Shown here piece after piece: positions 1,021 through 16,984 of a stretch of DNA of 64,000 nt; position 1 is the stretch's first letter; each line of letters opens with the position of its first letter. Under the pieces are notes generated by a model, which saw only the letters and a program-made list of their open reading frames with translations, searched no databases and had not been told where the DNA came from. A program made the position numbers and the translations under genes. Origin of the DNA: Patescibacteria group bacterium (lineage in GTDB: Bacteria > Patescibacteriota > Microgenomatia > UBA1400 > PJMF01); contig JBBDKV010000017.1 in assembly GCA_040879165.1 (NCBI GenBank), forward strand, positions 23,739 through 87,738, given 5' to 3'.

Positions 1021-1226
1021 GCTTTAAGCGTAGATTATTTTGCCCTATGTGACAAGCGTGTAATCAAGTGGTGGATCGAGTCGGTCAGGTACGGGAAAGT
1101 GCTATAATGTTGTTTGACTCGATTTTTGTGGGTGAGTTGATAACTACGGCATTAGTGCTCAGACTATCTTTGGAAAAGACTGCATATTGACAATTGTATC
1201 GTTTCGCAACAAAATGACCCATATAC

Positions 1227-1784: not shown

Positions 1785-1798
1785 CGCGGAGGCACTCT

Positions 1799-2941
1799 AT
1801 GAAGATTCAGCAAAAAAAGTGGACAGCAGCAAATGGCTGGCAAGATGTCATGGGAGACCAGTTAGCAGAACAAGCGCAGCTGGTTTTTTTATTTGGCGGG
1901 GTAAGTGCTCTTAAAGACCAAGAGCAATACAACGCAGTAAAAAACTGGTATCCTCACGCACAAGTAGTGAGTGTCTCAACTGCTGGTGAGATCATTGGGA
2001 CCCAGGTACTCGATGAGTCATTGGTTGTTACCGCCATAGCATTTGAGAAAACACAAATCCAAGCAGTGCAAGCCAAGATTTGGAATATGGACGAAAGTCT
2101 CTCAGTTGGCCATCAACTTGGTGAAGCCTTGCCGAAAGAAGGTCTCATTCATGTTCTTGTGTTTTCTGATGGTCTGCATATGAATGGCACAATGCTGGTA
2201 AATGGATTAGCAGAAAAACTTCCTCCTGAGGTTTCGGTGACTGGCGGATTAGCTGGTGATCAGGATAGATTTCAAGAAACACTCGTAGGTTTGAACTATG
2301 CTCCGCAACAAAATGTGGTGATTGCAATCGGGTTGTATGGCAATAACATTAAGGTTGGATATGGTTCGATGGGAGGCTGGGATCCGTTTGGTCCAGAACG
2401 ACTGGTAACAAAATCTAAAGCAAATGTTCTCTATGAACTCGATGGCCAGTTAGCTTTGGATTTGTATAAAAAATACTTGGGCGAGCAGGCGAAGAATTTG
2501 CCTGCATCGGGATTGCTCTTTCCTCTCAGCTTGAGAATTGGTGATCGCGAAGTAGGAATTGTTCGCACTATCCTGGCAGTAAATGATGAGGAGGGAAGTA
2601 TGACCTTTGCTGGAGACATTCCAGAAGGATCATATGCACGCTTGATGAAAGCCAACTTTGAACGGTTAGTAGATGGTGCGCAAGGAGCAGCAAGCATGAG
2701 TACTCAGTCGCTTCAGGGTACACGCTCAGAGCTAGCACTACTCATTAGCTGTGTTGGACGCAAACTGGTGCTTAAGCAGCGGGTTGAGGAAGAAGTAGAG
2801 GGCGTAGCGAGTATTTTAGGAGAACAGACCGTAATTACAGGTTTTTATTCGTATGGAGAGATTTGTCCTGTTGCTCCTACAGAAAAACAGTGCGATCTGC
2901 ATAATCAAACGATGACCATTACTACACTCACAGAACAATAA
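1799..2941 (+). CDS. FIST-domain sensory protein
   Basis: At 380 aa it has the size and architecture of FIST_N + FIST_C proteins. It lies between the REC and histidine-kinase genes on the same strand with short spacers. Confidence 0.5.
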   Translation: MKIQQKKWTAANGWQDVMGDQLAEQAQLVFLFGGVSALKDQEQYNAVKNWYPHAQVVSVSTAGEIIGTQVLDESLVVTAIAFEKTQIQAVQAKIWNMDESLSVGHQLGEALPKEGLIHVLVFSDGLHMNGTMLVNGLAEKLPPEVSVTGGLAGDQDRFQETLVGLNYAPQQNVVIAIGLYGNNIKVGYGSMGGWDPFGPERLVTKSKANVLYELDGQLALDLYKKYLGEQAKNLPASGLLFPLSLRIGDREVGIVRTILAVNDEEGSMTFAGDIPEGSYARLMKANFERLVDGAQGAASMSTQSLQGTRSELALLISCVGRKLVLKQRVEEEVEGVASILGEQTVITGFYSYGEICPVAPTEKQCDLHNQTMTITTLTEQ

Positions 2942-2956
2942 AAACTTCCGCCTTGC

Positions 2957-4438
2957 ATGAATAAATTATTACAACGACAGCTGAAAAAGGTCTATGGGAG
3001 AAACACCAATATCCCTAGTGAGATAGCACCCCTTTTACAGATCATTACTGATACCTACGACGGCTTTGATCAAGACCGTGAATTGACGATTCGCTCTCTT
3101 GAGCTCTCATCCCAAGAATTACTTGACGCAAATAGAAAACTAGGAGAGGAAACACAACGTCAGAAAGCAATTCTTGAAGCGCTTCGAGCAGCGACTTCAG
3201 TGCTCAAACCGAGCTCAGCTGAAAAAAAAGAGTGGCTTACTTCAGCGGATGAAGTGATCTATCTTGCGGAGTCGCTTACCCAATTAATCGAGGAACAAAA
3301 GCAGCACGAGCTGGAGTTGATCCACTCCAAAGTTCAGACCGAACAAGAAAAAGCAAAAGCTGAGGCTATTTTACTGTCGATCGGAGATGGGGTATTTGCA
3401 GTAGACCTAGATTTGAGAATTATGTTGATGAATCCCATAGCAGAACAACTATCAGGTTATTCCTTTGCCGAAGCTGAAGGAAGACCATATAACCAAATCT
3501 TCAGTTTTAAAACGGAGCACGATCCAGACGCACCCTATCCTAACTTTGTCCAGGATGTGATGAGTAGTGGTAAAATTCGAGCTCTGACCAACCACACCTT
3601 GCTTGTTAGAAAAGACAAAACGGAACTGTCAGTTTCTGATAGTGCGGCTCCTATTGTGAGTGAAAATGGCAAGATCATCGGCTGCATTGTCGTGGTGCGC
3701 GATGCGAGTCGTGAACGGGAGCTTGAGCGTGCTAAAGACGACTTCATCTCCATCACTGCCCACCAACTACGCACTCCGCTCGGAATTGTGCGCTGGCATG
3801 CTGAGATGCTCCTGCGGAATACTTTGCTCGATGCTGCTACCAGATCAAAGCTCAAACATGTTCATGCGAGCAACTTGCGCTTGATTGCTTTAGTGAATGA
3901 TTTACTTAATGTCTCACGGATTGATCAGGGGAGAGTACAGGATAATCCTCATTCTACCCATGTTTGTGAGGTCATCCGTGACGCATACTCAGAACTAGAG
4001 CCTTTAGCCCAACAGCTCAACGTCACGGTTAATCTACTGTTGAAAGATGGGTGTGACAAGGAAATATTTATTGATTCAAAACGTTTGGAGGAAGTAATCT
4101 TGAACTTACTCTCAAATGCGATCAAGTACAATGTTCCCGGAGGCAAGGTCGATGTCACTACTATGATGCAGGATGAGTTTATTGCGATTAGTTTCAGTGA
4201 TACGGGGATTGGTATCCCGCTGGAGGATCAAAAACGAATGTTTGATAAATTCCACCGTGCTAAAAATGCAACTCGCAATGATACTACAGGCACAGGCCTT
4301 GGCATGTATATTGTCAAATCATACGTTGATGCTTGGAGTGGTAAGATTGCCTTTCAGAGCACCGAAGGCAAAGGCTCCACCTTTGTGATTAGCATTCCTC
4401 TGTCCAGCACCCAATCTACTACACAGTTAGTTGAGTGA
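2957..4438 (+). CDS. PAS-domain sensor histidine kinase
   Basis: PAS-like segment DGVFAVDLDLRIMLMNPIAEQLSGY. HisKA H-box ITAHQLRTPL. HATPase_c N, G1 and G2 boxes (LLSNAIKYNVPGG, DTGIGIP, GTGLGMYIVK). Confidence 0.85.
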   Translation: MNKLLQRQLKKVYGRNTNIPSEIAPLLQIITDTYDGFDQDRELTIRSLELSSQELLDANRKLGEETQRQKAILEALRAATSVLKPSSAEKKEWLTSADEVIYLAESLTQLIEEQKQHELELIHSKVQTEQEKAKAEAILLSIGDGVFAVDLDLRIMLMNPIAEQLSGYSFAEAEGRPYNQIFSFKTEHDPDAPYPNFVQDVMSSGKIRALTNHTLLVRKDKTELSVSDSAAPIVSENGKIIGCIVVVRDASRERELERAKDDFISITAHQLRTPLGIVRWHAEMLLRNTLLDAATRSKLKHVHASNLRLIALVNDLLNVSRIDQGRVQDNPHSTHVCEVIRDAYSELEPLAQQLNVTVNLLLKDGCDKEIFIDSKRLEEVILNLLSNAIKYNVPGGKVDVTTMMQDEFIAISFSDTGIGIPLEDQKRMFDKFHRAKNATRNDTTGTGLGMYIVKSYVDAWSGKIAFQSTEGKGSTFVISIPLSSTQSTTQLVE

Positions 4439-4547
4439 TATACGCGACACTTTTTCAGCCATATTTGTGTGCATACTGATTTGGACTAGGCATCACTGTT
4501 CCTTCATGTGGTCAAATACGGGAGAGTGTTAGAATCCTACTCACTCG

Positions 4548-5204
4548 TTACTCTACTATCTCACCCTTCAACTTTTCAGCTTCAATATGAAAAAAATCAC
4601 TTAAGCTTTTCCTATCAAGAGAACCAATGATAATTGGATCGTCGAGGTGAGCATCTGCTTCAAATAATCTGCTAGCTAACTGGAGTGGGTCAACATGCCA
4701 ATCAAACTTCAATTTTGCTTTCATTCGCAGCTCCTCAGTTCCAAAACCATACTTTCGAATGATTGTGTACAGATCAAAATAATCTCGGCCTCTTGGTTTT
4801 TGAACAATAGTAAACAATTTGTTGGTGGCAATATCAATAACACTGTCAACAAGGAGACCATCTTTTTTCTCTGGATGCTCAATTTGTTCAAAAGGATAAT
4901 AGGTGAACTCTAGTTTGAGAACAGACTCATCCTTGAAACGAATAAAGTATAAATTTCGGTTAAAGCTATTTTGGTAGTCAAATGAAATAAATTCTAACTT
5001 CTTTTGTAGGCTTTTAATTATGACTGTAATGTCTTGCGCATCAAATTCTTCGTGACAGAAAAAATCAAGATCTTCTGAATAACGATGTTGCAAGTAATAG
5101 TGTGAAAGGGCTGTGCCACCACTAAAATAAAAGTGCTCTGCTAGACTCGTTTCTGAGATTAATTTGAGCACTAATTGTTGCTGCTCAGTTAGGATTGTGA
5201 CCAT
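4548..5204 (-). CDS. AbiEii-like nucleotidyltransferase (DUF1814), type IV toxin-antitoxin toxin-like
   Basis: FYFSGGTALSHYYLQHRYSEDLDFF matches the GGTAL...RxSxDLDF signature of AbiEii/DUF1814 nucleotidyltransferases. Confidence 0.7.
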   Translation of the reverse strand: MVTILTEQQQLVLKLISETSLAEHFYFSGGTALSHYYLQHRYSEDLDFFCHEEFDAQDITVIIKSLQKKLEFISFDYQNSFNRNLYFIRFKDESVLKLEFTYYPFEQIEHPEKKDGLLVDSVIDIATNKLFTIVQKPRGRDYFDLYTIIRKYGFGTEELRMKAKLKFDWHVDPLQLASRLFEADAHLDDPIIIGSLDRKSLSDFFHIEAEKLKGEIVE

Positions 5205-5497
5205 ACAATGCTCTTTAAGTAGTTCCGCTTGGCTGCATCAATGTCAAGTTTATCCCAATTAGCTTTTAATTTTTCTAATGAAAGCTTTGTGTTGTTGAGA
5301 CCAAAATTGATTTGCTGCTCCAATACAAATTGATCATACTTAGCAGAATTTTTCTTAAGTCGAGTAGTGTCAGTGTTCCAGTTGTACATAGTAGTATTAT
5401 ACTTGAAAATGGGCGCATTTAATAGGTTTGACCGGAAAAAGAAACTAATTTTGGGTTGATAAATCAAAGCATATTGTTTTTGAGCAAAAATCCTCAA
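5189..5497 (-). CDS. Hypothetical small protein, possible cognate antitoxin or partner of the AbiEii-like gene
   Basis: Its 3' end overlaps the start of the AbiEii-like gene by 16 nt on the same strand. No recognisable wHTH. Confidence 0.3.
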   Translation of the reverse strand: MRIFAQKQYALIYQPKISFFFRSNLLNAPIFKYNTTMYNWNTDTTRLKKNSAKYDQFVLEQQINFGLNNTKLSLEKLKANWDKLDIDAAKRNYLKSIVWSQS

Positions 5498-5523
5498 AAA
5501 CCTTTATTTATATGCATGGAAGC

Positions 5524-5883
5524 TCATTCAGAAATCTCTGCTATCGCTTCAATTTCAATCAATACTTTGGGATCACCCGGAAATTCTGGGAGAGCAGCTA
5601 CTCCAATAGTAGTTCTTGCTGGCAGATGTTTGCCAAAAAAATCCGCATAAAGCTCATTCATCTGAGGAAATAGCGATAAATCAGTCATAAACACCGTTGT
5701 CTTAACAACATTAACTTCAGTTAAGCCAGCAAGTTCTAAGACATTTCTTAAATTTTGGAAAATATTTTCAGTCTGAGATTGAAAGTCCTCAGGAATTACC
5801 TTGGTTTTTGAGTCTGATCCCACTTGACCAGATATAAAAACCATATTTCCAGTTTTGTAAAAAGGGCTGAGAGGTGCTTTCAT
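5524..5883 (-). CDS. ridA: RidA/YjgF family reactive intermediate deaminase
   Basis: 119 aa. ISGQVG...TTVFMTD...ARTTIGVAALP resembles the YjgF/RidA fold signature. Confidence 0.8.
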   Translation of the reverse strand: MKAPLSPFYKTGNMVFISGQVGSDSKTKVIPEDFQSQTENIFQNLRNVLELAGLTEVNVVKTTVFMTDLSLFPQMNELYADFFGKHLPARTTIGVAALPEFPGDPKVLIEIEAIAEISE

Positions 5884-6274
5884 ATGATTATTATAATGCA
5901 GTTTAAAAAAAATAGAACTGGTTGTTTAGACAAAGGGAAGAGCGTCTTGAATTTGGGGTAGCGTACACGAGTGTGTTAACACCTTGTTTGCGTGTTATAA
6001 CAATACTTGGTAGTAATTATAGATCGGACTTAACCAAAGTGAAGTGCAGTGTTTAGCTTAGTGAGCTTATTAACATAATTTTATAAATTTGAATAAGGAG
6101 AAAAATGCACGAAGATGAGCACAATTACGAACAACAAATTTTAGATGAGTACAAACGCAAGTTTCATGAAACACAAAAAATTATAAAGAGTCATCTAGGT
6201 AATTCAGGGTGGTGGGTGATAGGCAGCAATAGTAGACGAGGATTACTCGACATTGCCCCAATTTCAGGTGAAAT

Positions 6275-6875
6275 CAACTACCACCACCAGAGGTGGTGGT
6301 ATGCCTTCCGCCTCAAAGGCGCTACTTGTTACAGTGTATGTTGTTCGTGACTTAGCCCTTTTGCTCTTTTTGTTGCTGCCACTTTACATACTTTTTTATT
6401 TTATCTTCGTCCAGTCCTACAGTACTCACACAATACCCTCTGCTCCATAAGTGTTTTCCCCAGTATTGTTTGGTGAGATCTTTCCTGCTCCCAAACAACT
6501 TGATTGCTACTTTCCCTTTCAGATATCCCATTACCTCACTGACGGAGTACTTGGGTGGAATACTGATGATTAAGTGAACATGGTCGGGTTGAATGTTAAT
6601 TTCTTCGATCTCAACCTTGTTCTTTTGACCACACAATCGGTACAGCTGGTTTCTTACAAATACTTCTGACTTTCCTTCTAGTACTTTATACCTATATTTG
6701 GGACAAAATACTATGTGATATGTACAGTGCCAGATACTGTGCGATAATCGGTTATACTTTTTCATAGCTCCTCCTGGAACTCGCCTTTCAGGCGGAGCTA
6801 TTTTATTTTACTATACTCGTTGAACGTTAATGAGCGCTCACCGCCTGTAGGCGGTGGATATCTGAGGGATTATAT
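6275..6875 (-). mobile_element. IS200/IS605-family insertion sequence (tnpA only) with subterminal hairpins
   Basis: TnpA ORF flanked by perfect hairpins caccacc-aga-ggtggtg (6284-6301) and cgcc-tcaaa-ggcg on one side. The other side has gcctttcaggcgg (6783-6797) and accgcctgtaggcggtgg (6840-6858). Boundaries are approximate. Confidence 0.7.
6352..6765 (-). CDS. tnpA: IS200/IS605 family transposase TnpA (HUH Y1 transposase)
   Basis: 137 aa. WHCTYHIVFCPKYR followed by the HUH motif DHVHLIISIPP and a C-terminal Tyr-bearing helix (YVKWQ). Confidence 0.9.
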   Translation of the reverse strand: MKKYNRLSHSIWHCTYHIVFCPKYRYKVLEGKSEVFVRNQLYRLCGQKNKVEIEEINIQPDHVHLIISIPPKYSVSEVMGYLKGKVAIKLFGSRKDLTKQYWGKHLWSRGYCVSTVGLDEDKIKKYVKWQQQKEQKG

Positions 6876-6911
6876 AAGCCAGGAGGAATTTGGGCAGATA
6901 TAGACCTGCTA

Positions 6912-7430
6912 GTGGTTAATTCAAAAAAAGAAGCTTTTGACGAGTTAAGGAAAATGACAACCCCTCTGCCAATTGGCGGTGGTGTACTTACTACCTACTT
7001 ATCTATTGATGAAATTGACCCAGAAACAGAACTACCAAGCTCAGTAATAGCTGGTCTTAGTAGGCAACAAAATATACGTATTGATCCACAAATCTTCAAG
7101 ACGTTTTATGTAGAACAGATGGGTGAAAGATTTCCAACGGTATGTAGAGAAACTCTACTGGCATTATATTATCTTGGGGGAATAAGAGAAAAAGACATAC
7201 CAAGAATGAAAGAGTTAGAAGATTCGATCATGGCGCGTCCAACATGGACTACTCAAATTGACTCATATCGTTTGATAAAAGAGAAATGGGGAAATAAGGA
7301 CCGGCCTTTGATGGACAGAATAGGAAACGTAGTTGATAAATCAAGTTTATATAGGTTATTGAGAAGAAGAATGCCAAGAGTTACTGGAGCTATATTAGGA
7401 AAGTGTAAGAAAGTATTATATGGAAAGTAA
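6912..7430 (+). CDS. Hypothetical protein (GTG start), cargo of the integrative element
   Basis: 172-aa ORF with no recognised motif. It lies between the IS200 copy and the restriction-modification module. Confidence 0.4.
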   Translation: MVNSKKEAFDELRKMTTPLPIGGGVLTTYLSIDEIDPETELPSSVIAGLSRQQNIRIDPQIFKTFYVEQMGERFPTVCRETLLALYYLGGIREKDIPRMKELEDSIMARPTWTTQIDSYRLIKEKWGNKDRPLMDRIGNVVDKSSLYRLLRRRMPRVTGAILGKCKKVLYGK

Positions 7431-7565
7431 ATATTTTAATTGATATATCAATACGTGGGTAGAGTACGGGAGCTTGTTAGCAATCTTTTTTCATACTATA
7501 TTGAAGATCAAAATAATATGAACATCTCATACTAAACTAAACCCGAGCCAAGTAAGATACAGAAT

Positions 7566-8171
7566 TTACTTTTCCCAAACAATATGCCCATTCATATCAT
7601 TCTTTTCATAGACCTCAAGAATTTCAGTACAAAACCGCAGGAGGTTTTCATCACCCGATTGTTTAGCTATTTCATATAGCCGAATATACATCTTCTTGCC
7701 TGTTTCAGTTTGCTTGAAGTTTTTCTTCAAAAAATTATGTTGACTACAAAGCGTTTGTCCGTTTTGTAGTGTTGCTCCACCACCCAAGTCTTTGGGTTTA
7801 ATGTGGTCAGCATGAATTTCAACTCCTTCATTTCTACCTCTGCCACATATTACACACTTGTAGTCATCTCTCTCAAAAATTTGCTTTCTCAATGCTGGAG
7901 TAAAGTCTTCAAGCTCTCTGATTTGAATCATACTAGGGTCATATCTATAAATGCCCTTGTTCACTTTGATGAGGTATCCATTTTGGTGCAACTTTCTGAT
8001 TGCTCTATCAGGGTCTCGAAATATCTCACCAGTTCTTTCTAGCCATTCACCTGTAGCCCAGTCAACAATTTCAGGATGACTAATATCTCTCTTGGGATGT
8101 CCTTCAAAATACTCCATTATCAATCCACTTTGGCTGAGCTTTTCTTTTTTTATATCGTCGCTTTTTGACAT
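7566..8171 (-). CDS. HNH endonuclease, putative restriction endonuclease of a type II R-M system
   Basis: CVICGRGRNEGVEIHADHIKPKDLGG...NGQTLCSQHN is an HNH motif with flanking Cys pairs. The N-terminal region is wHTH-like. It lies 17 nt downstream of a C5-methyltransferase on the same strand. Confidence 0.65.
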   Translation of the reverse strand: MSKSDDIKKEKLSQSGLIMEYFEGHPKRDISHPEIVDWATGEWLERTGEIFRDPDRAIRKLHQNGYLIKVNKGIYRYDPSMIQIRELEDFTPALRKQIFERDDYKCVICGRGRNEGVEIHADHIKPKDLGGGATLQNGQTLCSQHNFLKKNFKQTETGKKMYIRLYEIAKQSGDENLLRFCTEILEVYEKNDMNGHIVWEK

Positions 8172-8187
8172 ATTACTTCTTCCTTTT

Positions 8188-9183
8188 TTATTTTAACACT
8201 TTGAGTAAAGATGCGATTTGTTTTGCAACTGCTTCAACCACAGGGACTGCAACAGAGTTCCCAAATTGCCTGTACATTTGTGTCCTAGAAACAGGCACTT
8301 TGAAATCCTTAGGAAATCCCATAATAGCCTTACATTCATTTACAGTGAGAAGTCTCAGCCCAGTTTCTCCATCTTTGACAAATGTTCCAGTAAGTCTTTG
8401 TATCTTGTGGTAAGTCGAAACAAGAGTTTTTACTTGTATCCTTGAACTTTTATCAATGATCTTTGGTCTACCATCATCTTTTTTGAACAGGTAGCTTTCT
8501 TGCAAGTGCTTCGATATGGAATATCCAGAAACGTCTTGCTCAAGAAAATCATTTATGTATGATTTTTCCACGCCACCTGTAGGGAAAGTGAAACTTCTCT
8601 CCTTGAGAAGGTCTTTTCTAAATCCAACAATGTAAATCCGCTTTCTAAATTGTGGCACTCCAAAATCAGAAGCATCTAAAACTTTAGTAAAAACTTTATA
8701 CCCAGCTTCATCTAAGGAGTCTAAAATAACTTGAAATGTTCTTCCACTATCGTGACTGACTAAACCTGGCACATTTTCTAATAAAAATGCTTTGTTTTTT
8801 TTATTCTCGATAATTCTCAGTACGTCATAAAATAGAGTACCCTGAGTAGCATGTAGAAACCCTTGTCTCTTGCCAATAGAACTGAATGGTTGACAGGGGA
8901 ATCCGCCTACTAATACATCAAAATCTGGAATTTCTTTCTCATCTATCTTTGTTATATCACCATGTGGAATCTCTCCAAAATTAGCCTCATAGGTTTTTTG
9001 ACTATGCTTGTCCCACTCTGAAGAAAAAACACATTCTCCCCCAGCATTTTCAAATGCAATTCTAGTGCCTCCAATCCCAGCAAATAAATCAATAAACTTA
9101 AAATCACCAACAGTTGATCTTTTATTCTGGTCTTCAAACAGACTAGGTGCACTCATTTTAGATAATTTTTTTGTGTTACTCAT
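8188..9183 (-). CDS. DNA (cytosine-5)-methyltransferase
   Basis: Motif I FIDLFAGIGG, motif IV GGFPCQPFS and motif VI ENVPGL, with target-recognition and C-terminal motifs present. Confidence 0.9.
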   Translation of the reverse strand: MSNTKKLSKMSAPSLFEDQNKRSTVGDFKFIDLFAGIGGTRIAFENAGGECVFSSEWDKHSQKTYEANFGEIPHGDITKIDEKEIPDFDVLVGGFPCQPFSSIGKRQGFLHATQGTLFYDVLRIIENKKNKAFLLENVPGLVSHDSGRTFQVILDSLDEAGYKVFTKVLDASDFGVPQFRKRIYIVGFRKDLLKERSFTFPTGGVEKSYINDFLEQDVSGYSISKHLQESYLFKKDDGRPKIIDKSSRIQVKTLVSTYHKIQRLTGTFVKDGETGLRLLTVNECKAIMGFPKDFKVPVSRTQMYRQFGNSVAVPVVEAVAKQIASLLKVLK

Positions 9184-9207
9184 ATCAAAGACTCGTTTTT
9201 GAAAAAA

Positions 9208-9408
9208 CTATGTTTCCAATTTTCGTTTATCTAAAAAGTTTTGCAAATCATCTTCCTTGACTCGCAGTTCTTGCTCCAATTTGTAGGCGGGCAGTTTTTT
9301 CGTTTTGATATAGCGGTAAATGGTCATCTTGCTCACTTTGAGAGCTTGGGCGACTTCTTCAATGGTGAGGAGCGTCTGTGTTTGCACTATATTGATAGTA
9401 TCACTCAT
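9208..9408 (-). CDS. Small HTH DNA-binding protein (AlpA/excisionase-like), possible controller of the R-M operon
   Basis: 66 aa. LTIEEVAQALKVSKMTIYRYIKTKKLP is a classic HTH. It sits directly upstream of the methyltransferase on the same strand. Confidence 0.6.
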   Translation of the reverse strand: MSDTINIVQTQTLLTIEEVAQALKVSKMTIYRYIKTKKLPAYKLEQELRVKEDDLQNFLDKRKLET

Positions 9409-9463
9409 TCACATTTGTTTACAAGGGTGATATAGTTTTTCTCAAGAATTATCAAATATAAGT

Positions 9464-10621
9464 ATGAAACAAAGTTTTTTCCATCAAGATTTTTTGAAAC
9501 ACGTTGATCTCAATCTTTTCAACCAGTATTTACTTTCCAAGAATCTAACTGAAATAAGTACTCCAGATAGTAAGGCTGACAAAGCTCAAGCAATGTCTGA
9601 CTATTTAGTCAGTTTGACCGATGCGGACGGCGATATTGTGGTCAATGATCTTATGGTAGTGAGAGATTTGTCATCAGACGGCGGTGTGATTGCCATTATG
9701 GAGCTATCGGAGGAAGCTACTTTCAAGCAAGCCCTCTCGGAGCTGACAAGTAACATCAATCGGGTGCTATATTGCTTACTATACAAACCAGATTTGATTG
9801 AACCAGCTCTCAAGTTGAAGCAAATCACAGCGACTGAAAACTTCCACGTTCGCAGGGTGACAAAAAGCGTTGAGGCTGACCAAGTATTAGCCAAGCTCCC
9901 TGAGTTCAAACTTGAGTTGACTGCTTTCTTGCAGAAAGAGGAAGCAAAAGGAGCGAACTGCCAGATAGATAGCTATCAATTCAAAGATAGAGTTTGCTTT
10001 TTTGCCTATCCAGAAGATCATCCCAAATCATTGAATCTTTATCAGAACGGGAAGCTCAATCCTACAGTAGTGCATCCTAGCTTTGAGTTGGTTTTTGTCT
10101 ACTATCCAGAAATGAAACAGCTAGAAATAGCAACCCGAATGAGAAGCAAAAAATTACAAACTCTGTTCAACCTTTTCAATCGTGCTGTGCTAGACGACTC
10201 TCAGCCAGTACCAAACAACCAAGACACACTCAACCTCGATGTGTTGCTTACTGATGGATTTAGCTTCATTTTTGACCCGAGCTACCAAGTTGATTCTATA
10301 TGCGTAACTCAGATTCGCCTTGACTACAAGTACAACCGCAAGAAACGGTTTATCACCCATGTTGATGAGGGTAACGGCATGGAACAAATCTTAGAGGAGT
10401 TAAAATATCGCAATTTACGAGGTGATAGTCTACAACACTATGTGGTTGCCCAAGCTACCATCAAATTGCGTTTCAAACAGTTTGGACGAAGCAATCGGGT
10501 CACCACACTCTTGACCGCACCAGACAAAATAAAGCTCAATGAAACAAATCCTCACCAACTCGCCAAGAAGTGCCTACAGGACTGGAAAATCATCAATGAG
10601 CCACTCACAGACGCTGAATAA
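9464..10621 (+). CDS. Hypothetical protein, 385 aa, no recognisable domain
   Basis: Long uninterrupted ORF with a plausible RBS. Its 3' end overlaps the start of the next ORF, indicating translational coupling. Confidence 0.5.
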   Translation: MKQSFFHQDFLKHVDLNLFNQYLLSKNLTEISTPDSKADKAQAMSDYLVSLTDADGDIVVNDLMVVRDLSSDGGVIAIMELSEEATFKQALSELTSNINRVLYCLLYKPDLIEPALKLKQITATENFHVRRVTKSVEADQVLAKLPEFKLELTAFLQKEEAKGANCQIDSYQFKDRVCFFAYPEDHPKSLNLYQNGKLNPTVVHPSFELVFVYYPEMKQLEIATRMRSKKLQTLFNLFNRAVLDDSQPVPNNQDTLNLDVLLTDGFSFIFDPSYQVDSICVTQIRLDYKYNRKKRFITHVDEGNGMEQILEELKYRNLRGDSLQHYVVAQATIKLRFKQFGRSNRVTTLLTAPDKIKLNETNPHQLAKKCLQDWKIINEPLTDAE

Positions 10622-11675
10622 GCTACTAGATGCAGGTATCAACATCAAGGACTTTCAAATAAGTGCTAAAGATTTAGACCAACAATTTAGGCAGGTTGGT
10701 AACATCTTACTCAATCTTGGCTGGTTTACCCAAGATTATGCCACTGGTTATCAATGCTCGCAGTGCGGTGCTGTTCATGAGGTGGTGGCTTTCAATGGCA
10801 AGTATTTTATTGGCTGTGATGTGGACGGAGATTCTGGTTTAGAGACACTGAGCAAAGATGATCTATTGATCTATCGTTTTTCAGCCACGAAGTTCTTTGA
10901 ATGGTTGCAACAATCTTTCTCCTTGCAGGGTAATGTTGAATCCACTGACGATAGGGTATTACTTGGTCAGGGAACGGTAAACGGCAAGCAACGTCTGTTT
11001 ATATTCAGCCATGAAAACTCACCCGAAGCAAGAAAAGTACTCTGTCAGAAATACCTTATCAGTCAGCCTTTGATTCTCTACCTCAGCACCATTCACGATA
11101 ATCACAATCAGGGATATGACATCAACTTGGCTCATTATCTAGTAGTGCAAGAAATGGGTTTGAGCATCGATACAAACTCAGCTTTGAGTGCGATTGCAGA
11201 TTCCATACCGCCGTTTGCAGGTGAGGCTCAGACAAACTCAAGCATTTATGCCATTGAATTGAAGCTTGTGGGTGACAAAATTGTGCTAGTTGGCACAGCT
11301 CTTGGTGGTTCGTATCCAGCGTTCAAAGCCAAGAAGAAAAGAAGCACTGCCATGTCTAGATTGTTGAGAACCCTGCTCAATTTGCATGAGAACGATAAGG
11401 AAACTACCTCTGTAATTTACAAACAAAGCGTGCTTGAGGCGAACTACATTGACCCACGAAAAAACAAGCTAAATGACCTTGCAGAAATTGATCTCAGTCA
11501 AGACAAGCGACCACTGAGTGAACTCTGCTCACTCTTACTACCATACTTACTCGCACACCGACACCACAAAGACGACGGCTTAGTGGTCGAGTTCAAACCC
11601 GCTTTGTCGCAAGAGAGCTGGAACAGACTCCCAGACTCAGAAAAACAGAAGATTCTAGCTTCAAAGGCTAATTAG
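10539..11675 (+). CDS. Hypothetical protein, about 360-378 aa, with an N-terminal CxxC motif
   Basis: Long ORF. CSQCGAVHE suggests a zinc-ribbon-like element. The likely true start is Met at 10592 (MSHSQTL), overlapping the upstream ORF by about 30 nt. Confidence 0.5.
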   Translation: MKQILTNSPRSAYRTGKSSMSHSQTLNKLLDAGINIKDFQISAKDLDQQFRQVGNILLNLGWFTQDYATGYQCSQCGAVHEVVAFNGKYFIGCDVDGDSGLETLSKDDLLIYRFSATKFFEWLQQSFSLQGNVESTDDRVLLGQGTVNGKQRLFIFSHENSPEARKVLCQKYLISQPLILYLSTIHDNHNQGYDINLAHYLVVQEMGLSIDTNSALSAIADSIPPFAGEAQTNSSIYAIELKLVGDKIVLVGTALGGSYPAFKAKKKRSTAMSRLLRTLLNLHENDKETTSVIYKQSVLEANYIDPRKNKLNDLAEIDLSQDKRPLSELCSLLLPYLLAHRHHKDDGLVVEFKPALSQESWNRLPDSEKQKILASKAN

Positions 11676-11837
11676 CCAAACCTCGTCAATCCTCAGTTTG
11701 TGCAATTACTTGCATTTAGCAACGTCCATCAGTTGTGTTTTTTAGTACTTTCTGCGTTTGCGTGCATTTAGCGTTTTGGATCAAAAACCTAGGTGACAAT
11801 CCTCTTGCGAACATAAAAATTAGCAATGAGGATAAGC

Positions 11838-12086
11838 ATGAAAGACGCACACAATTACTTCACTACTTACGATCTGAACCTGTCAGCCGTATTGGTTTCA
11901 CAAAACTTCATTTTAGAAGAAATAGAAAAACCTGAAAGCGGGAAAGCTCTTTTTTACTTCAAAAAAAGCGATGCTCTGCTAGAGACTATTGATCGCTACT
12001 GGAAAAACCAGCTCCAAATCTCCCCTCAAACCTTATTTACCAGTTTGAAATCCATCAAGAACCGCCTGTACAGCGGTTGGAAGTAA
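11838..12086 (+). CDS. Small DUF5659-like protein typical of CPR and phage mobile elements
   Basis: MKDAHNYFTTYDLNLSAVLVSQNFILEEIEK...ALFYFKK resembles the small DUF5659 family. Assignment from memory, not a search. Confidence 0.35.
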   Translation: MKDAHNYFTTYDLNLSAVLVSQNFILEEIEKPESGKALFYFKKSDALLETIDRYWKNQLQISPQTLFTSLKSIKNRLYSGWK

Positions 12087-12286
12087 AAGTCATGTTGAGT
12101 CGTGCCTCAGTGACAAAGTTCCAGCAAATCTACTTCCAAGAGTACGGCATCAATCTAGATGAGCAGACTGCCTACGAGCTGGCGAATAACCTCGCAAACC
12201 TGTACCGCAGTGTCTACCTGCCAGACACAAAAAATATAAGTCAAAAATATGAAACGAACACATCAACTCAGACGAATCAAAACTAA
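12077..12286 (+). CDS. Hypothetical small protein
   Basis: 69-aa ORF overlapping neighbours by a few nt in a compact same-strand array. Confidence 0.25.
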   Translation: MEVKVMLSRASVTKFQQIYFQEYGINLDEQTAYELANNLANLYRSVYLPDTKNISQKYETNTSTQTNQN

Positions 12287-12302
12287 GAAGTCTTACTCAT
12301 CT

Positions 12303-12668
12303 ATGGAGTTGGCTAACTTGCTTGGTGTTCATGTTCAAACAGTACGATCATGGGCAAGTAATGGTTTAGAACCCCTCAGCCCAAACGCTCACAGACCTTT
12401 GTTTTTAGGTCAGACAGTGAAGTCCTATCTTTCCAAACTGCAAGACGCTCGCAAAGTGAAGCTCCAAGTGGGTGAGTTCTACTGCCTACGGTGTCGAGTC
12501 GCCATCACGCCAGAGTTAGTGATTGAGGTTGATCGTCATGTCACCATCGGCAAGCACAAAGACTCGATTTTACTTACCGCCCACTGTCCACAGTGCAACT
12601 GCCCCGTCAATAAGTTTTCTAGCCGAATATCAACCAACCAGAAAGGAAAATATGCTCCTGACGCATAA
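12303..12668 (+). CDS. HTH (MerR/excisionase-like) protein with a C-terminal Cys4 zinc ribbon
   Basis: MELANLLGVHVQTVRSWASNG is an HTH. CLRC...CPQCNC gives four Cys. It lies upstream of the integrase genes. Confidence 0.5.
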   Translation: MELANLLGVHVQTVRSWASNGLEPLSPNAHRPLFLGQTVKSYLSKLQDARKVKLQVGEFYCLRCRVAITPELVIEVDRHVTIGKHKDSILLTAHCPQCNCPVNKFSSRISTNQKGKYAPDA

Positions 12669-12996
12669 ACGGTACGAAGTCCCTGGCGACTGGTATCAAC
12701 CCAAACAGCAACTCCTCACCAAGCCGAGTGTGATGTTGGCTGAGTACTACGAAACATCATCAAGCTCTGGTGATTGGAGTGGGTACTTCTTGCAGAAAAT
12801 CGGTCAAGCCTATCACCTGATTTTATTCACTCAGGAAAACCTTTATCCAGAGGATGGCTTTGAGTTGATGACAGGTGTGGTAATCCACACATTCAAATCC
12901 GAGCCAAACAAACCCGATGTTGCAAAGGTCATTATCTCAGTACTTGAACACTCTCGTAATCACTCACTTAGTAATAACGCAGAAATGAAAGGATAA
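12652..12996 (+). CDS. Hypothetical protein
   Basis: The ORF starts at ATG 12652, overlapping the stop of the previous gene. No motif recognised. Confidence 0.35.
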   Translation: MLLTHKRYEVPGDWYQPKQQLLTKPSVMLAEYYETSSSSGDWSGYFLQKIGQAYHLILFTQENLYPEDGFELMTGVVIHTFKSEPNKPDVAKVIISVLEHSRNHSLSNNAEMKG

Positions 12997-13148
12997 CTAT
13001 GTTGAATCACGCTCAATTATCGTTTTTAGCAGTAATACTCTGGGTTGGAATAACCTATCTGGCAACTGCCAAGAAAGAGTTTCCCTGGCATCTAGTAATT
13101 TTGGCAGTAATTATCACACTCGAATTACTCTCGAAATAGAAAGGCATT

Positions 13149-14264
13149 ATGTCAAAAACCAAAGACAAAAACGAACGCATCAAACGCAAGTATCTCAACT
13201 GGCTACAAGAGGCTGAGGGATTTTCAGAGAAGTCGATCACGGCGGTAGAAAAAGCTCTGTGGAAATATGAAGATTTTATCAAGGATTCAGACTACAGCAC
13301 GTTCAATCATAAGCAGGCTGAACAATTCAAGAAATATCTGACAACCAACAAAAATAAGGTCAGTAACAAAATCCTCTCACTGAGATCGCAATATCACATC
13401 CTCAGGCACGTTCGCAACTTCTTGACTTGGTTATCTGGACAGCTTGGCTATAAGTCCCGTATCTCAACCTACGATGTCCAGTACTTGCAACTGAGCAAAA
13501 AAGATCGGCGGGTTGCGACCTCTGCCTCACTTCCAAAGTATCCCACCCTTGAGCAGATCAAACAGCTTTGTAGCTTTTCAGTTCAAACTGAGCTTGACCA
13601 GCGAGATCGAGCGTTGATAGCCTTTACTGCTCTAACAGGCATGAGAGATCAAGCGATTGTTACCTTGCCACTTGGTTGTTTTGACCAAGAGAAAATGCTC
13701 GTGCAACAGCTCCCAAGCAAAGGTGTTCAAACCAAGTTCAGCAAGGACATTTATACTACTCTTTTTCAGGTAGATGAAACGCTGGCTGGCTACTTTTTGA
13801 AGTGGTACGCTTATTTGAAAACGGAGAAGCATTTTGGGCTGGAAGATCCGATATTTCCGAGTACAGAGGTAGGTTTTGTTAGTAAAAATCACCATGCCTT
13901 TACCCCTATTGGTATTAGTAAAGAGTTCTGGGCAGATACCAATCCGATGCGAAAGATTTTTCAGGAGCGAAGCAAGCAAGCGAACGTGCCTTACTACACC
14001 CCCCATAAGTTCAGGCACTTCATCATCAATGAGGCTCAGAAACACATCACGAGCATTGAACAGCTCAAGGCTCTCAGTCAGAACCTGGGTCATGAAAACA
14101 TAAGCACCACTTTTCATGGCTACGGAGCAATTGATACTTATCGAGTCAATGAGTTGGTCAGTTCTATTGATTTTTCAGGACTTCCCAAGAACCAAGCAGA
14201 AGAAGCTCAACTTGAAAGAATCGCTGATCTTGTCGCTAAAAAATTAGGAAGAAATGAGCTATAA
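13149..14264 (+). CDS. Tyrosine recombinase / phage-type integrase
   Basis: The C-terminal catalytic region has HKFRHF and LGHENISTTFHGYGAI, the R..H..R..Y signature. Confidence 0.85.
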   Translation: MSKTKDKNERIKRKYLNWLQEAEGFSEKSITAVEKALWKYEDFIKDSDYSTFNHKQAEQFKKYLTTNKNKVSNKILSLRSQYHILRHVRNFLTWLSGQLGYKSRISTYDVQYLQLSKKDRRVATSASLPKYPTLEQIKQLCSFSVQTELDQRDRALIAFTALTGMRDQAIVTLPLGCFDQEKMLVQQLPSKGVQTKFSKDIYTTLFQVDETLAGYFLKWYAYLKTEKHFGLEDPIFPSTEVGFVSKNHHAFTPIGISKEFWADTNPMRKIFQERSKQANVPYYTPHKFRHFIINEAQKHITSIEQLKALSQNLGHENISTTFHGYGAIDTYRVNELVSSIDFSGLPKNQAEEAQLERIADLVAKKLGRNEL

Positions 14265-14294
14265 TGTTAGTGTTGACCCAAGTTATAGTGGTGC

Positions 14295-16040
14295 ATGAAA
14301 AAAGGCAGTTCTGCCAACGTATGCACTATGTTGGGTCAACCAGGACTGTCTTTTTATATGAGAATAAGAAAAACACTTACTAGCCTCAAGCCAAGAAAAT
14401 CTGGTCACCCCAAGCAGAATCGGTACATTCTATATGCCCGTAAGTCTACTACCTCAGAAGACCGTCAAGTTGCTTCGATTGAGTCCCAGATCGAAGTGAT
14501 GAAAGAGGTAGCTCGTGAGCATGATTTGGAAGTTTCAGAGGTATTGAGTGAAGCAGGTTCAGGCTTCAAGATAGGTAGACAAGCGTTCAATGCCATGATC
14601 GAAAAGATCGAAAGCGGTGAAGCTGATGGCATCATTGTCTGGAAGCTCTCACGCTTATCTCGTAACCCTGATGATGCGGGCAAAATCATGGGCTTACTGC
14701 AACGAGGTGAAATCAAGCACATTCGCACCGCAGACCGCAACTGGTATCCAGAAGACAACGTGATGATGATGTATGTTGAGTTTGGTATGACCAACCAGTT
14801 TAGTCGTGATCTGAGTTCAGACACTCGCCGAGGATTAGTCAAAAAAGCTGAGCGTGGTTGGTTGCCGAACGCCATTCTCCCACTTGGCTATATGCACAGC
14901 CCATACAAAAAGTTAGGTGATGAAGAAATTATCATTGATAAAAGCCGTTTTGACTTGATTCAAGAGGGTTTGAAGCTGGTAGCTTCTGGACAGAAAACAC
15001 CTGTTGAAGCTCATGGCTATTTAGTTACTCAAGGTGTTGTGGGAAAAAGAAGTGAAGCATTACCTAAAAGCACTTGGTACAAGATGTTAGTTGAACCACT
15101 ATACGCAGGGACTTTTGAGTATCCAATAGGTAGTGGTCAGTTTTATGACTCCAAAGCACCCAGAGCCATAGAACCGACTGAGTACGATGCCATTCAAGTT
15201 GTTTTAGGTAGAAAAGATAAGCCTCGACCCAAGACTCACTTTTTGCCTTACACGGGTTTGATGAAGTGCGGTGAGTGTGGTTGCTCCATTACTGCTGAAA
15301 AGAAGCGGAAAGTGCAGAAAAATGGTAACGTGCATCACTATATCTACTATCACTGTACCAAGAAAAAAGGCGAGTGTGGTCAGCCGTGTACGCCTGTTGA
15401 TACACTTGAGAAGCAATATAAGTCCATTTTGAAACGTATCAAAATCCCCTTAGCCTTTCACGAATGGGCTATTGATGAGATCAAATATGACCAAGAAAAA
15501 GTCATCAGGGATCGTGACACCAGCCTACAACGAACTCGAACAAACTACGATGACTGCCTGAGTGAGATTGATAACTTGGTAAAGAAATACCTTGAGGGGA
15601 AAGTGCCAGAAGACTACTATGATCGCAACCTTGCCAAGCTCAATAAAAACAAAAAGACATTGGCGAAAATCTTGGAGGGTATAGACAAAGGTGTCGATGA
15701 AAACTTGGAAAAAATCGATAAAGACCTAGATTTTGCCGTAACAGCCAGAAGACGCTTCAACCAAGGCAACGACTCCAAACGTCGAGAGATCATTTCCTAT
15801 TTAGGCTCGAACCTCATCCTCAAAGACCATTCACTCGGCATTGAGCTGAGAAAACCGCTGGAATTGGTGGCAGAAATTGCAGAAGAAGTCAATGCTGTTG
15901 CAGAAAAGTTCGAACCTCTAGAAAATGCTGATAATTCGGCACAATTTAAGTTGTATTTGTCTGAAAATCCTGCAATGGGTGGTATACCGGACTTGAACCG
16001 GCGACCTCCGCTGCCACAGAGCGGCGCTCTAACCAACTGA
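14295..16040 (+). CDS. Large serine recombinase (resolvase domain + recombinase domain + zinc ribbon)
   Basis: YARKSTTSEDRQVASIESQ carries the catalytic Ser. GIIVWKLSRLSRN is also present. The CGECGC...YYHCTKKK zinc ribbon fits this family, as does the 581-aa length. The 3' end overlaps tRNA-His. Confidence 0.85.
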   Translation: MKKGSSANVCTMLGQPGLSFYMRIRKTLTSLKPRKSGHPKQNRYILYARKSTTSEDRQVASIESQIEVMKEVAREHDLEVSEVLSEAGSGFKIGRQAFNAMIEKIESGEADGIIVWKLSRLSRNPDDAGKIMGLLQRGEIKHIRTADRNWYPEDNVMMMYVEFGMTNQFSRDLSSDTRRGLVKKAERGWLPNAILPLGYMHSPYKKLGDEEIIIDKSRFDLIQEGLKLVASGQKTPVEAHGYLVTQGVVGKRSEALPKSTWYKMLVEPLYAGTFEYPIGSGQFYDSKAPRAIEPTEYDAIQVVLGRKDKPRPKTHFLPYTGLMKCGECGCSITAEKKRKVQKNGNVHHYIYYHCTKKKGECGQPCTPVDTLEKQYKSILKRIKIPLAFHEWAIDEIKYDQEKVIRDRDTSLQRTRTNYDDCLSEIDNLVKKYLEGKVPEDYYDRNLAKLNKNKKTLAKILEGIDKGVDENLEKIDKDLDFAVTARRRFNQGNDSKRREIISYLGSNLILKDHSLGIELRKPLELVAEIAEEVNAVAEKFEPLENADNSAQFKLYLSENPAMGGIPDLNRRPPLPQSGALTN

Positions 16041-16052
16041 GCTAATACCACC
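15977..16052 (-). tRNA. tRNA-His (GTG)
   Basis: Manual cloverleaf. G-1 plus acceptor GTGGTAT/ATACCAC with C73. D-arm GCTCAGTTGGTTAGAGC. Anticodon loop CTGTGGC. T-arm GCCGG-TTCAAGT-CCGGT. Confidence 0.85.
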
Positions 16053-16953: not shown

Positions 16954-16984
16954 ACGCTTTCAGTATAGTAAGTTTTTGAAATCT

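What the first reader, a model, noticed from the sequence alone, without database searches (positions are those of the whole stretch)
14295..16052. Large serine recombinase ORF reads about 60 nt into tRNA-His, and a tyrosine integrase sits directly upstream
The recombinase stop codon (16040) lies inside the tRNA-His gene on the opposite strand (15977-16052). The last 20 codons are therefore templated by the tRNA sequence, as expected if the att core lies within the recombinase gene. Two different recombinase types in tandem at one element end is unusual. It may reflect nested elements or one integrase plus one resolvase or invertase.
Basis: seen in the sequence. Interest (0 to 1): 0.55.

Follow-up and report, generated by a model that had tools for sequence, protein, structure and literature searches.

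The report
Serine integrase element inserted at tRNA-His
An 8.5-kb mobile element sits at the very 3' end of an intact tRNA-His gene, placed there by a large serine integrase whose attachment site lies in its own last codons; it belongs to a large, apparently undescribed clade of tRNA-targeting serine integrases in candidate-phyla bacteria.

Summary
The serine recombinase ORF (14295/14358..16040, +) ends 63-64 nt inside an intact tRNA-His (15977..16052, -). An intact tyrosine recombinase gene (13149..14264) lies directly upstream.

The att sites can be reconstructed from public sequences. A 92%-identical element (L001) stops matching the window at 15980. Two contigs (L083, L084) join the window's right end to the sequence at window 7461-7500 (attP). 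A relative (L087) has an empty tRNA-His site (attB). All share a 4-nt core, GGGT, which is tRNA nt 71-73 plus one base.

The element therefore spans 7457..15980. LSR residues 1-541 are element-encoded. The last 19 residues are read from host tRNA antisense and are predicted to be disordered.

The pattern is family-wide. At least 50 of 68 related LSR loci end on an opposite-strand tRNA 3' end, against about 0.015 per locus expected by chance. Most of these loci have no tyrosine recombinase, so the LSR is the integrase. The tyrosine recombinase is a co-inherited accessory of one subclade, and its role is unknown. The two recombinases are not from nested elements.

Serine integrases were "not known for targeting tRNA genes" (PMC7192596).

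Verdict: real; a new variant of a known kind.

The parts
7457..7460 (+). attL core GGGT (left crossover region)
   Evidence: The same 4 nt occur in attP (L083, L084), attR and the empty attB (L087).
7461..7500 (+). P' arm, the left end of the element (AGAGTACGGGAGCTTGTTAGCAATC...)
   Evidence: It matches the sequence downstream of the core in the attP contigs: 30/40 with L084 and 27/40 with L083. It matches L009 attL at 32/40. The motif TACGG[GC]A[GA]..[GT]GTTAG occurs only at five places in the whole data set: the two window P'-type sites, L009 attL, and the two attP contigs.
7566..9183 (-). Cargo: HNH endonuclease (7566-8171) and C5 cytosine DNA methyltransferase (8188-9183), a restriction-modification pair
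   Evidence: Pfam HNH 5.8e-7 and DNA_methylase 1.5e-104; NCBIfam dcm 343 bits. Relatives carry other R-M genes at this position.
9208..9408 (-). HTH_17 / excisionase-family DNA-binding protein (66 aa). It is the first gene of the leftward operon and a candidate regulator or directionality factor.
   Evidence: TIGR01764 49.8 bits against a cutoff of 28.8; PHROG 66 excisionase/regulator 3.3e-11. Conserved in L001, L002 and L004.
9464..13139 (+). Conserved core genes of unknown function: p385 (9464-10621), p378/359 (10539 or 10596-11675), DUF5659 (11826-12086), p69 (12077-12286), an HTH/zinc-ribbon-like p139 (12249-12668), and small ORFs up to 13139
   Evidence: Synteny with L001, L002, L004 and L085. 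Pfam DUF5659 3.4e-12. PHROG 37634 (unknown function) for p385.
13149..14264 (+). Tyrosine recombinase (371 aa), a co-inherited partner of the LSR in this subclade
   Evidence: PF00589 1.2e-9. PHROG integrase. Xer models score far below their cutoffs. Catalytic R..HxxR..H..Y motif present, and dN/dS 0.04-0.05. It lies directly upstream of the LSR in 15 loci and shares at least 27 contigs with LSR hits.
14272..14357 (+). Conserved intergenic nested inverted repeats, with an alternative stem that abuts the LSR start codon
   Evidence: Covariation support is weak.
14358..16040 (+). Large serine recombinase ORF. Residues 1-541 (to 15980) are element-encoded. Residues 542-560 and the stop (15981-16040) are read from host tRNA-His antisense.
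   Evidence: Domains. PHROG 95 integrase 1.2e-61. AlphaFold model with catalytic domain, recombinase domain, zinc ribbon and coiled coil, and pLDDT below 50 for residues 541-560. Foldseek hits to the SprA, Bxb1 and PhiC31 integrases. Breakpoint at 15980.
15941..15976 (+). P arm of the att site, lying inside the last codons of the LSR gene
   Evidence: 36/40 identical to L084 and 33/40 to L083 over the 40 nt ending at the core (15941-15980), upstream of the same GGGT.
15977..15980 (+). attR core GGGT, the antisense of tRNA-His A71, C72, C73 and the next base
15977..16052 (-). Intact tRNA-His(GTG) with encoded G-1. It forms the B' side of attB.
   Evidence: ARAGORN; Rfam 66.5 bits. An unoccupied homologous site exists in L087.
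4509..4545 (+). Second, more diverged P'-type site (TGGT core at 4509-4512). It marks the outer end of an older element.
   Evidence: 24/32 (hand count on the sequences; 27/40 computed) identical to L084 P'. It is one of the five motif occurrences. It sits at the boundary between the host histidine kinase gene end (4438) and low-GC DNA.
4513..7456 (.). Integrase-less remnant in tandem: AbiEii toxin (4548-5204, -), a possible partner ORF (5189-5497, -; not scanned), L-PSP (5524-5883, -), IS200 Y1 transposase (6352-6765, -) and a 172-aa ORF
   Evidence: Pfam. GC 35-40%. No LSR relic detected.

Best explanation
Window 7457..15980 is an 8.5-kb integrative element of a Patescibacteria (CPR) bacterium. 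It was inserted by its own large serine recombinase (LSR) at the extreme 3' end of the host tRNA-His gene.

The element's attP core (GGGT) lies within the last codons of the LSR gene, so the LSR has no stop codon of its own upstream of the crossover. In the un-integrated junction the ORF runs on into the element's other end (P') for 17-38 codons. After integration it runs into the antisense strand of tRNA-His for 19 codons, until a TGA created by the conserved D-arm sequence.

The crossover falls at tRNA positions 71-73 plus one base, and the element supplies identical bases. The tRNA is therefore unchanged through C73 and stays functional. The swapped tail is an unstructured, junction-dependent appendage and not a conserved part of the enzyme.

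The element carries a restriction-modification pair as cargo. The upstream tyrosine recombinase belongs to the same element and is a co-evolving partner of this LSR subclade. It is not what defines the tRNA junction. Its role is unknown: multimer resolution of a circular form is my inference only.

Shown in silico: the element ends, all four att types, the family-wide tRNA association, and purifying selection on both genes. Inferred: that the LSR catalyses the reaction, where the 2-nt crossover lies within GGGT, that a free circular form exists, and what the tyrosine recombinase does.
For: 1. Breakpoint. L001 carries the same element at 92% DNA identity. It matches the window only up to 15980 and then continues into unrelated, non-tRNA DNA.
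2. attP. L084 and L083 read ...tctgaaaatcccgcaat GGGT agagtacggg...tgttagaa. This is the window's P arm (36/40 and 33/40) fused to window 7461-7500 (30/40 and 27/40).
3. attL. The window (7457-7460) and L009 share an almost identical P', although their LSRs are only 67% identical.
4. attB. L087 holds an unoccupied tRNA-His with the same GGGT and no LSR next to it.
5. Family-wide pattern. 50 of 68 complete LSR ends overlap an opposite-strand tRNA 3' end by 9-104 nt (His 20, Asn 13, Gln 6 and others), against about 0.015 per locus expected. At least six more loci have an unannotated acceptor plus T-arm at the junction, and L010 reads right through a tRNA-His.
6. The junction tracks the LSR. Only 13 of 74 ORFs upstream of the LSR are tyrosine recombinases. 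In 16 loci without an adjacent tyrosine recombinase, only 1 of 82 large upstream ORFs has PF00589; the rest are mostly R-M genes.
7. LSR identity. Pfam, PHROG and fold evidence agree.
8. Tail. pLDDT is below 50 for residues 541-560. Tail length and sequence vary with whatever lies across the junction.
9. Selection. dN/dS is 0.06-0.08 for the LSR and 0.04-0.05 for the tyrosine recombinase.
Against: No experiment and no read-level evidence of excision supports the model. None of 17 whole-contig loci is circular, so the P-P' junction contigs could be tandem copies and not free circles.

The att half-sites show no significant dyad symmetry, and P' is not significantly similar to B' when compared with shuffles. 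That symmetry would have been independent support for LSR binding.

In the window's own subclade the tyrosine recombinase is always present, so its involvement at this junction cannot be excluded from sequence alone. A 4-5 nt shared core is short for a tyrosine recombinase, but it does not formally exclude one.

L001 shows the same element end joined to non-tRNA DNA. This could be off-target integration, a rearrangement or a mis-assembly.
Confidence: 0.8

Rival explanations
1. This is a classical tRNA island. The tyrosine integrase is the enzyme that targets tRNA-His. The element carries its own copy of the tRNA 3' segment, which happens to overlap the LSR gene, and the LSR serves as a resolvase or invertase.
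For: Tyrosine integrases are the enzymes known to favour tRNA genes: 44.5% of Y-Int islands against 4.9% of S-Int islands (PMC7192596). An intact tyrosine recombinase lies 1.7 kb from the tRNA. It is always present in this subclade.
Against: The element ends only 3-4 nt inside the tRNA, so it does not carry a tRNA 3' segment. No repeat of the tRNA 3' part occurs elsewhere in the window. The same ORF-end/tRNA geometry holds in dozens of loci that have no tyrosine recombinase. The LSR gene, not the tyrosine recombinase gene, abuts the junction in every case.
Confidence: 0.07
2. The two recombinases belong to two different, nested or abutting elements.
For: Two recombinase types lie side by side at an element end. 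The window does contain a second P'-type site (4509-4545) and an integrase-less remnant.
Against: Both genes lie within a single attL/attR pair (7457 and 15980). They are adjacent with a conserved intergenic region in L001, L002, L004, L009, L083 and L084. They co-occur on at least 27 contigs, with parallel divergence. No att-like site lies between them.
Confidence: 0.03
3. The long C-terminus is an artefact, such as a frameshift or sequencing error or over-extended ORF calling, and the tRNA is unrelated to the recombinase.
For: The tail is predicted to be disordered, and its sequence is simply tRNA antisense.
Against: Identical geometry appears in independent assemblies (L002, L004, L008, L018, L020 and others). 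No in-frame stop exists upstream of the core in any state, including attP contigs. The ORF end coincides with the mapped crossover.
Confidence: 0.02
4. The same architecture holds, but the exchange of C-terminal tail and 3' UTR on integration is functional. Possible forms are biasing directionality, changing LSR stability, or letting convergent tRNA-His transcription silence the LSR in the integrated state.
For: The ORF always crosses the core, so the protein necessarily differs between states. A promoter-like site lies upstream of tRNA-His on the minus strand, and no terminator-like site separates the tRNA 3' end from the LSR.
Against: Tail length ranges from 0-3 to about 45 codons among relatives, depending only on the flanking sequence. 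The tail is disordered. There are no expression data.
Confidence: 0.15

Closest known systems
Phage and ICE large serine integrases (PhiC31, Bxb1, TP901-1, A118/LI, SPbeta SprA)
   Same: Same domain architecture: catalytic domain, recombinase domain, zinc ribbon and coiled coil. Distinct attP and attB sites share only a very short core. The int gene lies at the element end next to attP.
   Different: The target is the 3' terminus of a tRNA gene, whereas known LSRs use protein-coding or intergenic sites (PMC7192596). The attP core lies inside the integrase ORF, so the stop codon is supplied across the junction. The element is a small non-phage carrier of R-M genes, with no relatives in the viral collection. 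The hosts are CPR and other uncultivated phyla.
tRNA-targeting tyrosine-integrase genomic islands (P4-like and similar; Williams 2002 sublocation classes)
   Same: Integration at a tRNA 3' end preserves the tRNA. The integrase gene lies adjacent to the tRNA-proximal junction.
   Different: Here the junction-defining enzyme is a serine recombinase. Only 4 nt of tRNA are duplicated, not a 3' segment of tens of nt.
SSV1-type archaeal integrases (attP inside the int gene, which is split on integration). This comparison is from my own knowledge.
   Same: attP lies within the integrase ORF, so integration changes the encoded protein.
   Different: SSV1 Int is a tyrosine recombinase, and its gene is split into two substantial parts. 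Here only a disordered tail of about 19-38 aa is exchanged, and the enzyme body stays intact.
The 14 bioinformatically predicted S-Int islands at t(m)RNA genes in TIGER (Mageeney et al. 2020, PMC7192596)
   Same: Predicted use of tRNA genes by serine integrases.
   Different: Those were few cases in cultivated genomes, flagged by the authors as needing proof. Here there is a coherent clade with mapped attB, attP, attL and attR, and a consistent junction position. I did not test whether the two sets overlap.

Membership tests
Large serine recombinase (serine integrase) | N-terminal resolvase-type catalytic domain with a serine nucleophile | tested here: met
   PF00239 3.6e-21. The YARKS motif gives Ser30, numbering from the ATG at 14358. 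TP901-1 Int catalytic domain 3e-8.
Large serine recombinase (serine integrase) | Large C-terminal region with a recombinase domain, a zinc ribbon and an embedded coiled coil | tested here: met
   PF13408 8.1e-7. PF07508 is annotated in many homologues. The model shows a recombinase domain at about 178-282, a zinc ribbon at about 302-360 and two long helices at 365-469. Full-length Foldseek hits to SprA (1.9e-19), Bxb1 and PhiC31.
Large serine recombinase (serine integrase) | Non-identical attP and attB sites sharing only a short central core; hybrid attL and attR flank the element | tested here: met
   attP (L083, L084), attB (L087), and attL and attR (window, L009) share only GGGT.
Large serine recombinase (serine integrase) | Imperfect dyad symmetry of att half-sites around the core | tested here: inconclusive
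   rc(P) against P', rc(B) against B', and P' against B' are no better than shuffles. Only simple alignment scoring was used.
Large serine recombinase (serine integrase) | Catalysis of unidirectional attP x attB recombination, with excision needing a directionality factor | not testable with these tools
   This needs in vivo or in vitro recombination assays. The candidate HTH proteins at 9208-9408 and 12249-12668 are only leads.
Tyrosine-integrase tRNA island | A direct repeat of the tRNA 3' segment (usually at least 7 nt and up to tens of nt) at the distal element end | tested here: not met
   No second copy of any 25-nt part of the tRNA 3' half with up to 3 mismatches, and no exact match of 12 nt or more to the 3' half. 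The shared core is 4-5 nt.
Tyrosine-integrase tRNA island | The junction co-varies with the tyrosine integrase across relatives | tested here: not met
   The tRNA junction persists in loci without any tyrosine recombinase.
Xer-type chromosome/plasmid dimer resolvase (for the 371-aa tyrosine recombinase) | Score above the curated XerA/XerC/XerD model cutoffs | tested here: not met
   XerA 57.6 bits against 220; XerC 53.3 against 335; XerD 43.7 against 330. It is a tyrosine recombinase (PF00589) but not a recognised Xer equivalog.
SSV1-type partitioned integrase | attP inside the int ORF | tested here: met
   The core at 15977-15980 lies 60 nt upstream of the stop in the integrated state, and 17-38 codons upstream of the stop in attP contigs.
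SSV1-type partitioned integrase | A tyrosine recombinase whose gene is split into two substantial fragments on integration | tested here: not met
   The enzyme is a serine recombinase. Only the last 19 residues change.

The most novel reading that the evidence does not exclude
A large clade of serine integrases, found in CPR/Patescibacteria, Elusimicrobiota, Omnitrophota and others, has specialised on tRNA 3' ends, a niche thought to belong to tyrosine integrases. In this clade attP is embedded in the integrase's own last codons. Integration and excision would then rewrite the enzyme's C-terminus and 3' UTR, and place the gene head-on against a tRNA promoter. That would be a built-in sensor of integration state, controlling directionality or expression. 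In one subclade an obligatory tyrosine-recombinase partner would take part in the reaction cycle.
Probability: 0.2. Interest if true: 0.8.

Novelty: new variant of a known kind. Interest (0 to 1): 0.62.

Why it matters
First, it extends the known target range of serine integrases. The literature I could search treats tRNA genes as the province of tyrosine integrases and states that serine-integrase use of a tRNA gene had not been reported (PMC7192596). Here there is a coherent clade with mapped attB, attP, attL and attR sites.

Second, tRNA 3' ends are short, highly conserved natural attB sites. Serine integrases need no host factors (my own knowledge), which makes these enzymes attractive candidates for landing-pad-free genome engineering, including of uncultivated or genetically intractable bacteria.

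Third, the work identifies a family of small mobile elements that move restriction-modification systems among CPR bacteria, whose mobilome is poorly known.

Fourth, there is a practical annotation point. LSR ORFs ending in 'DSNPRP'-type tails, or overlapping tRNAs, mark exact element junctions.

Tried and rejected
- I searched the window for a second copy of the tRNA-His 3' part. None exists. The only tRNA-like repeat is a degenerate full-length tRNA-His relic at 16978-17052, on the other side of the tRNA.
- I scanned for P' as the reverse complement of the P arm. There was no convincing hit. P' was instead found through the translated 'attP-type' tails of homologues.
- By eye, P' seemed to resemble the tRNA B' half-site and the att sites seemed to have dyad symmetry. 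Shuffle tests do not support either, so I dropped both arguments.
- Exact-protein look-ups of the host flanks, in search of an empty site, returned only fragments of the same genome. The empty site came from a degenerate tRNA-His pattern scan.
- I tested 17 whole-contig loci for circularity. None has terminal overlaps.
- The viral contig collection holds no relatives.
- I looked for a dif-like or dyad site for the tyrosine recombinase within the element. Nothing was decisive.
- I tested covariation in the Tyr-LSR intergenic hairpin. It is too weak with five distinct sequences.
- I looked for an LSR relic in the 4513-7456 remnant. There is none; only the IS200 copy matches elsewhere.
Full report
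**1. The observation**

The ORF 14295..16040 (+) encodes a 581-aa protein with a Resolvase domain and a recombinase zinc ribbon. Its TGA stop is at 16038-16040. ARAGORN and Rfam call an intact tRNA-His(GTG) on the minus strand at 15977/8..16051, and G-1 is encoded at 16052. The ORF enters the tRNA from its 3' end and overlaps it by 63-64 nt.

The ORF 13149..14264 (+) is a tyrosine recombinase with the catalytic R..HxxR..H..Y residues.

The likely LSR start is the ATG at 14358, giving 560 aa. Most homologues begin MRIRKT/MKIRKT, and 14272-14357 is a conserved structured non-coding stretch.

**2. Where the element ends**

Three relatives share the module HTH_17 | p385 | p378 | DUF5659 | small ORFs | Tyr recombinase | LSR.
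- L001 carries the element at 92% DNA identity. It matches the window only up to 15980, then continues into unrelated DNA with no tRNA.
- L002 and L004 share the element and also the tRNA-His.

The last 60 nt of the window's LSR ORF therefore lie outside the element.

The C-termini of 120 homologues end in a conserved ...NPxMG(G). After that they fall into three classes:
- about 56 that show neither tail signature; most of these end within a few codons of the junction;
- about 37 with a tail of the RRDSNPRPPLPQSGALTN type, which is tRNA antisense;
- about 23 with a tail of the RVREGVRTL... type.

Translated searches with the third class hit window 7455-7514 and 4501-4563, and distal sites in L009 and L014.

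The DNA of two such homologues gives ...tctgaaaatcccgcaat GGGT agagtacgggag..tgttagaa... (L084, L083). This is the window's P arm (36/40 and 33/40) joined to window 7461-7500 (30/40 and 27/40). That is the attP configuration.
- Window attL is ...caatacgt GGGT agagtacgggagcttgttagc..., with the core at 7457-7460.
- Window attR is ...cctgcaat GGGT ggtataccggacttgaacc..., with the core at 15977-15980.
- L009 has the same pair of junctions.
- L087, a 1.2-Mb contig of a relative, has an unoccupied tRNA-His reading ...cgaaaatg GGGT ggtaaaccggacttgaacc..., with no LSR beside it.

The 4-nt core is the antisense of tRNA A71, C72, C73 and the next base. The tRNA is identical through C73 in attB and attR.

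The element is therefore 7457..15980 (8.5 kb). It carries an HNH endonuclease and a C5 methyltransferase as cargo.

**3. A second site and a remnant**

A more diverged P'-type site lies at 4509-4545. It is 24/32 (hand count; 27/40 computed) identical to L084 P', and it sits exactly where host two-component genes give way to low-GC DNA.

The segment 4513-7456 (AbiEii toxin and an adjacent unscanned ORF, L-PSP, IS200 transposase) has no integrase and no LSR relic. I read it as the remnant of an older element at the same tRNA, displaced when the present element inserted next to the tRNA. If so, the non-tRNA (B) arm can vary widely. This is inference.

**4. Which recombinase?**

In 80 genome loci encoding relatives of the LSR (35-95% identity; Patescibacteria, Elusimicrobiota, Omnitrophota and others), 68 have a complete ORF end. 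In 50 of these the ORF end overlaps an opposite-strand tRNA by 9-104 nt: His 20, Asn 13, Gln 6, plus Lys, Trp, Arg, Ala, Gly, Ile, Ser and Pro. tRNA density in the same loci is 0.085 per kb, which predicts about 0.015 per locus for a window of that size.

The true fraction is higher:
- At least six further loci carry an antisense acceptor plus T-arm at the junction, followed by a shared non-tRNA sequence. These are probably intron-containing tRNA genes of the kind described for Patescibacteria (PMC13011429, abstract seen).
- L010 reads straight through a tRNA-His.

Only 13 of 74 ORFs immediately upstream of the LSR are tyrosine recombinases. In 16 loci without one, a single ORF out of 82 large ORFs in the upstream 10 kb has PF00589. 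The rest are dominated by restriction-modification genes.

The tRNA junction therefore tracks the LSR. The protein is a bona fide LSR by sequence and by fold.

**5. The tail**

Residues 542-560 (GIPDLNRRPPLPQSGALTN) are tRNA-templated. The ORF stops at a TGA formed by the antisense of the conserved D-arm. The model gives pLDDT below 50 for residues 541-560.

Among relatives the extension ranges from a few to about 45 codons. It depends only on what lies across the junction. I therefore regard the tail as an incidental appendage. A regulatory role is not excluded (see the fourth rival explanation).

**6. The tyrosine recombinase**

It is intact and under strong purifying selection (dN/dS 0.04-0.05). 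It lies directly upstream of the LSR in 15 loci and on both attP contigs. Its protein family shares at least 27 contigs with the LSR hits, with parallel divergence.

It is therefore a co-inherited partner within one element, not a sign of nesting. It scores far below the Xer model cutoffs, and I found no candidate site for it. Its function is unknown. Multimer resolution of a circular intermediate is a guess.

**7. Weaknesses**

- There is no experimental or read-level evidence for excision.
- No circular contigs were found, so the P-P' junctions could come from tandem copies.
- There is no significant half-site symmetry.
- L001 shows the same element end at a non-tRNA site, which could be off-target integration, a rearrangement or a mis-assembly.

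**8. Comparison with what is known**

Mageeney et al. [quoted passage not shown] Further searches turned up no description of a tRNA-targeting LSR clade, of CPR LSR elements, or of attP inside a serine integrase gene.

The nearest analogy for attP lying within the int gene is the SSV1-type tyrosine integrase (my own knowledge), which differs in enzyme family and in the consequence for the gene.

**Verdict**

The feature is real and is a new variant of a known kind. Confidence in the mechanism is about 0.8, and interest is about 0.6.

Noticed in passing
window 16978-17052 (minus strand): A degenerate tRNA-His-like sequence lies 1 kb on the 5' side of the real tRNA-His. Its 5' 29 nt are 93% identical to the real gene and its T-arm is recognisable, but the anticodon arm and the acceptor 3' end have decayed. 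Neither ARAGORN nor Rfam calls it, even at E<=10. A 250-aa ORF (16201-16953, -) separates it from the real tRNA-His. Its origin is unexplained; it could be an old duplication or a displaced ancestral copy.
   Followed up: partly
window 14272-14357: The region between the tyrosine recombinase and the LSR holds conserved nested inverted repeats (GTTGACCCA...GGCAG-TT-CTGCC...TGGGTCAAC). An alternative long stem (AAAAAGGCAGTTCTG / CAGGACTGTCTTTTT in the window; CAGAACTGTCTTTTT in L004, L083 and L084) abuts the LSR ATG. This could be an expression switch. It is conserved in L001, L002, L004, L083 and L084, but covariation is weak.
   Followed up: partly
window 4513-7456: A low-GC, integrase-less island bounded on the left by a P'-type site. 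It holds an AbiEii toxin (4548-5204), an adjacent unscanned ORF (5189-5497) that may be its antitoxin, L-PSP (5524-5883), an IS200/IS605 Y1 transposase (6352-6765) and a 172-aa ORF. A 77%-identical IS200 copy sits inside the element in L008.
   Followed up: partly
L001 9942 onward (JBDTME010000004.1): The same element (92% identical) is joined at the same GGGT to non-tRNA DNA. Its LSR ORF runs on to 633 aa, over the end of an aminotransferase gene. This could be off-target integration, a rearrangement or a mis-assembly.
   Followed up: partly
L014, L030, L037, L059, L062 (junction just after the LSR end): An antisense acceptor plus T-arm of a tRNA is followed by a shared sequence (...GTGGACTATATCAT...) in place of the rest of the tRNA. 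These are probably intron-containing tRNA genes missed by ARAGORN (compare PMC13011429).
   Followed up: no
L058 394-501: An LSR 3'-end fragment fused to a P'-type sequence lies about 9.5 kb upstream of the intact LSR. This is the signature of tandem elements, with a P-P' joint inside a chromosome.
   Followed up: no
window 11697-11720 and 11749-11772: A pair of 24-nt direct repeats (79% identical) lies in the intergenic region between p378 and DUF5659. The stretch 11200-11805 is the one part of the core element that does not align with L001. It could be an origin or a regulatory region.
   Followed up: no
Relatives' loci, the 10 kb upstream of the LSR: The cargo of this element family is dominated by restriction-modification genes: ResIII, N6_Mtase, N6_N4_Mtase, Eco57I, D12 methyltransferase, type I S subunit and MmeI. 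The family appears to be a vehicle for R-M systems.
   Followed up: partly
window 26000-29500: A second low-GC stretch (36-41%) in the window. I did not examine it.
   Followed up: no
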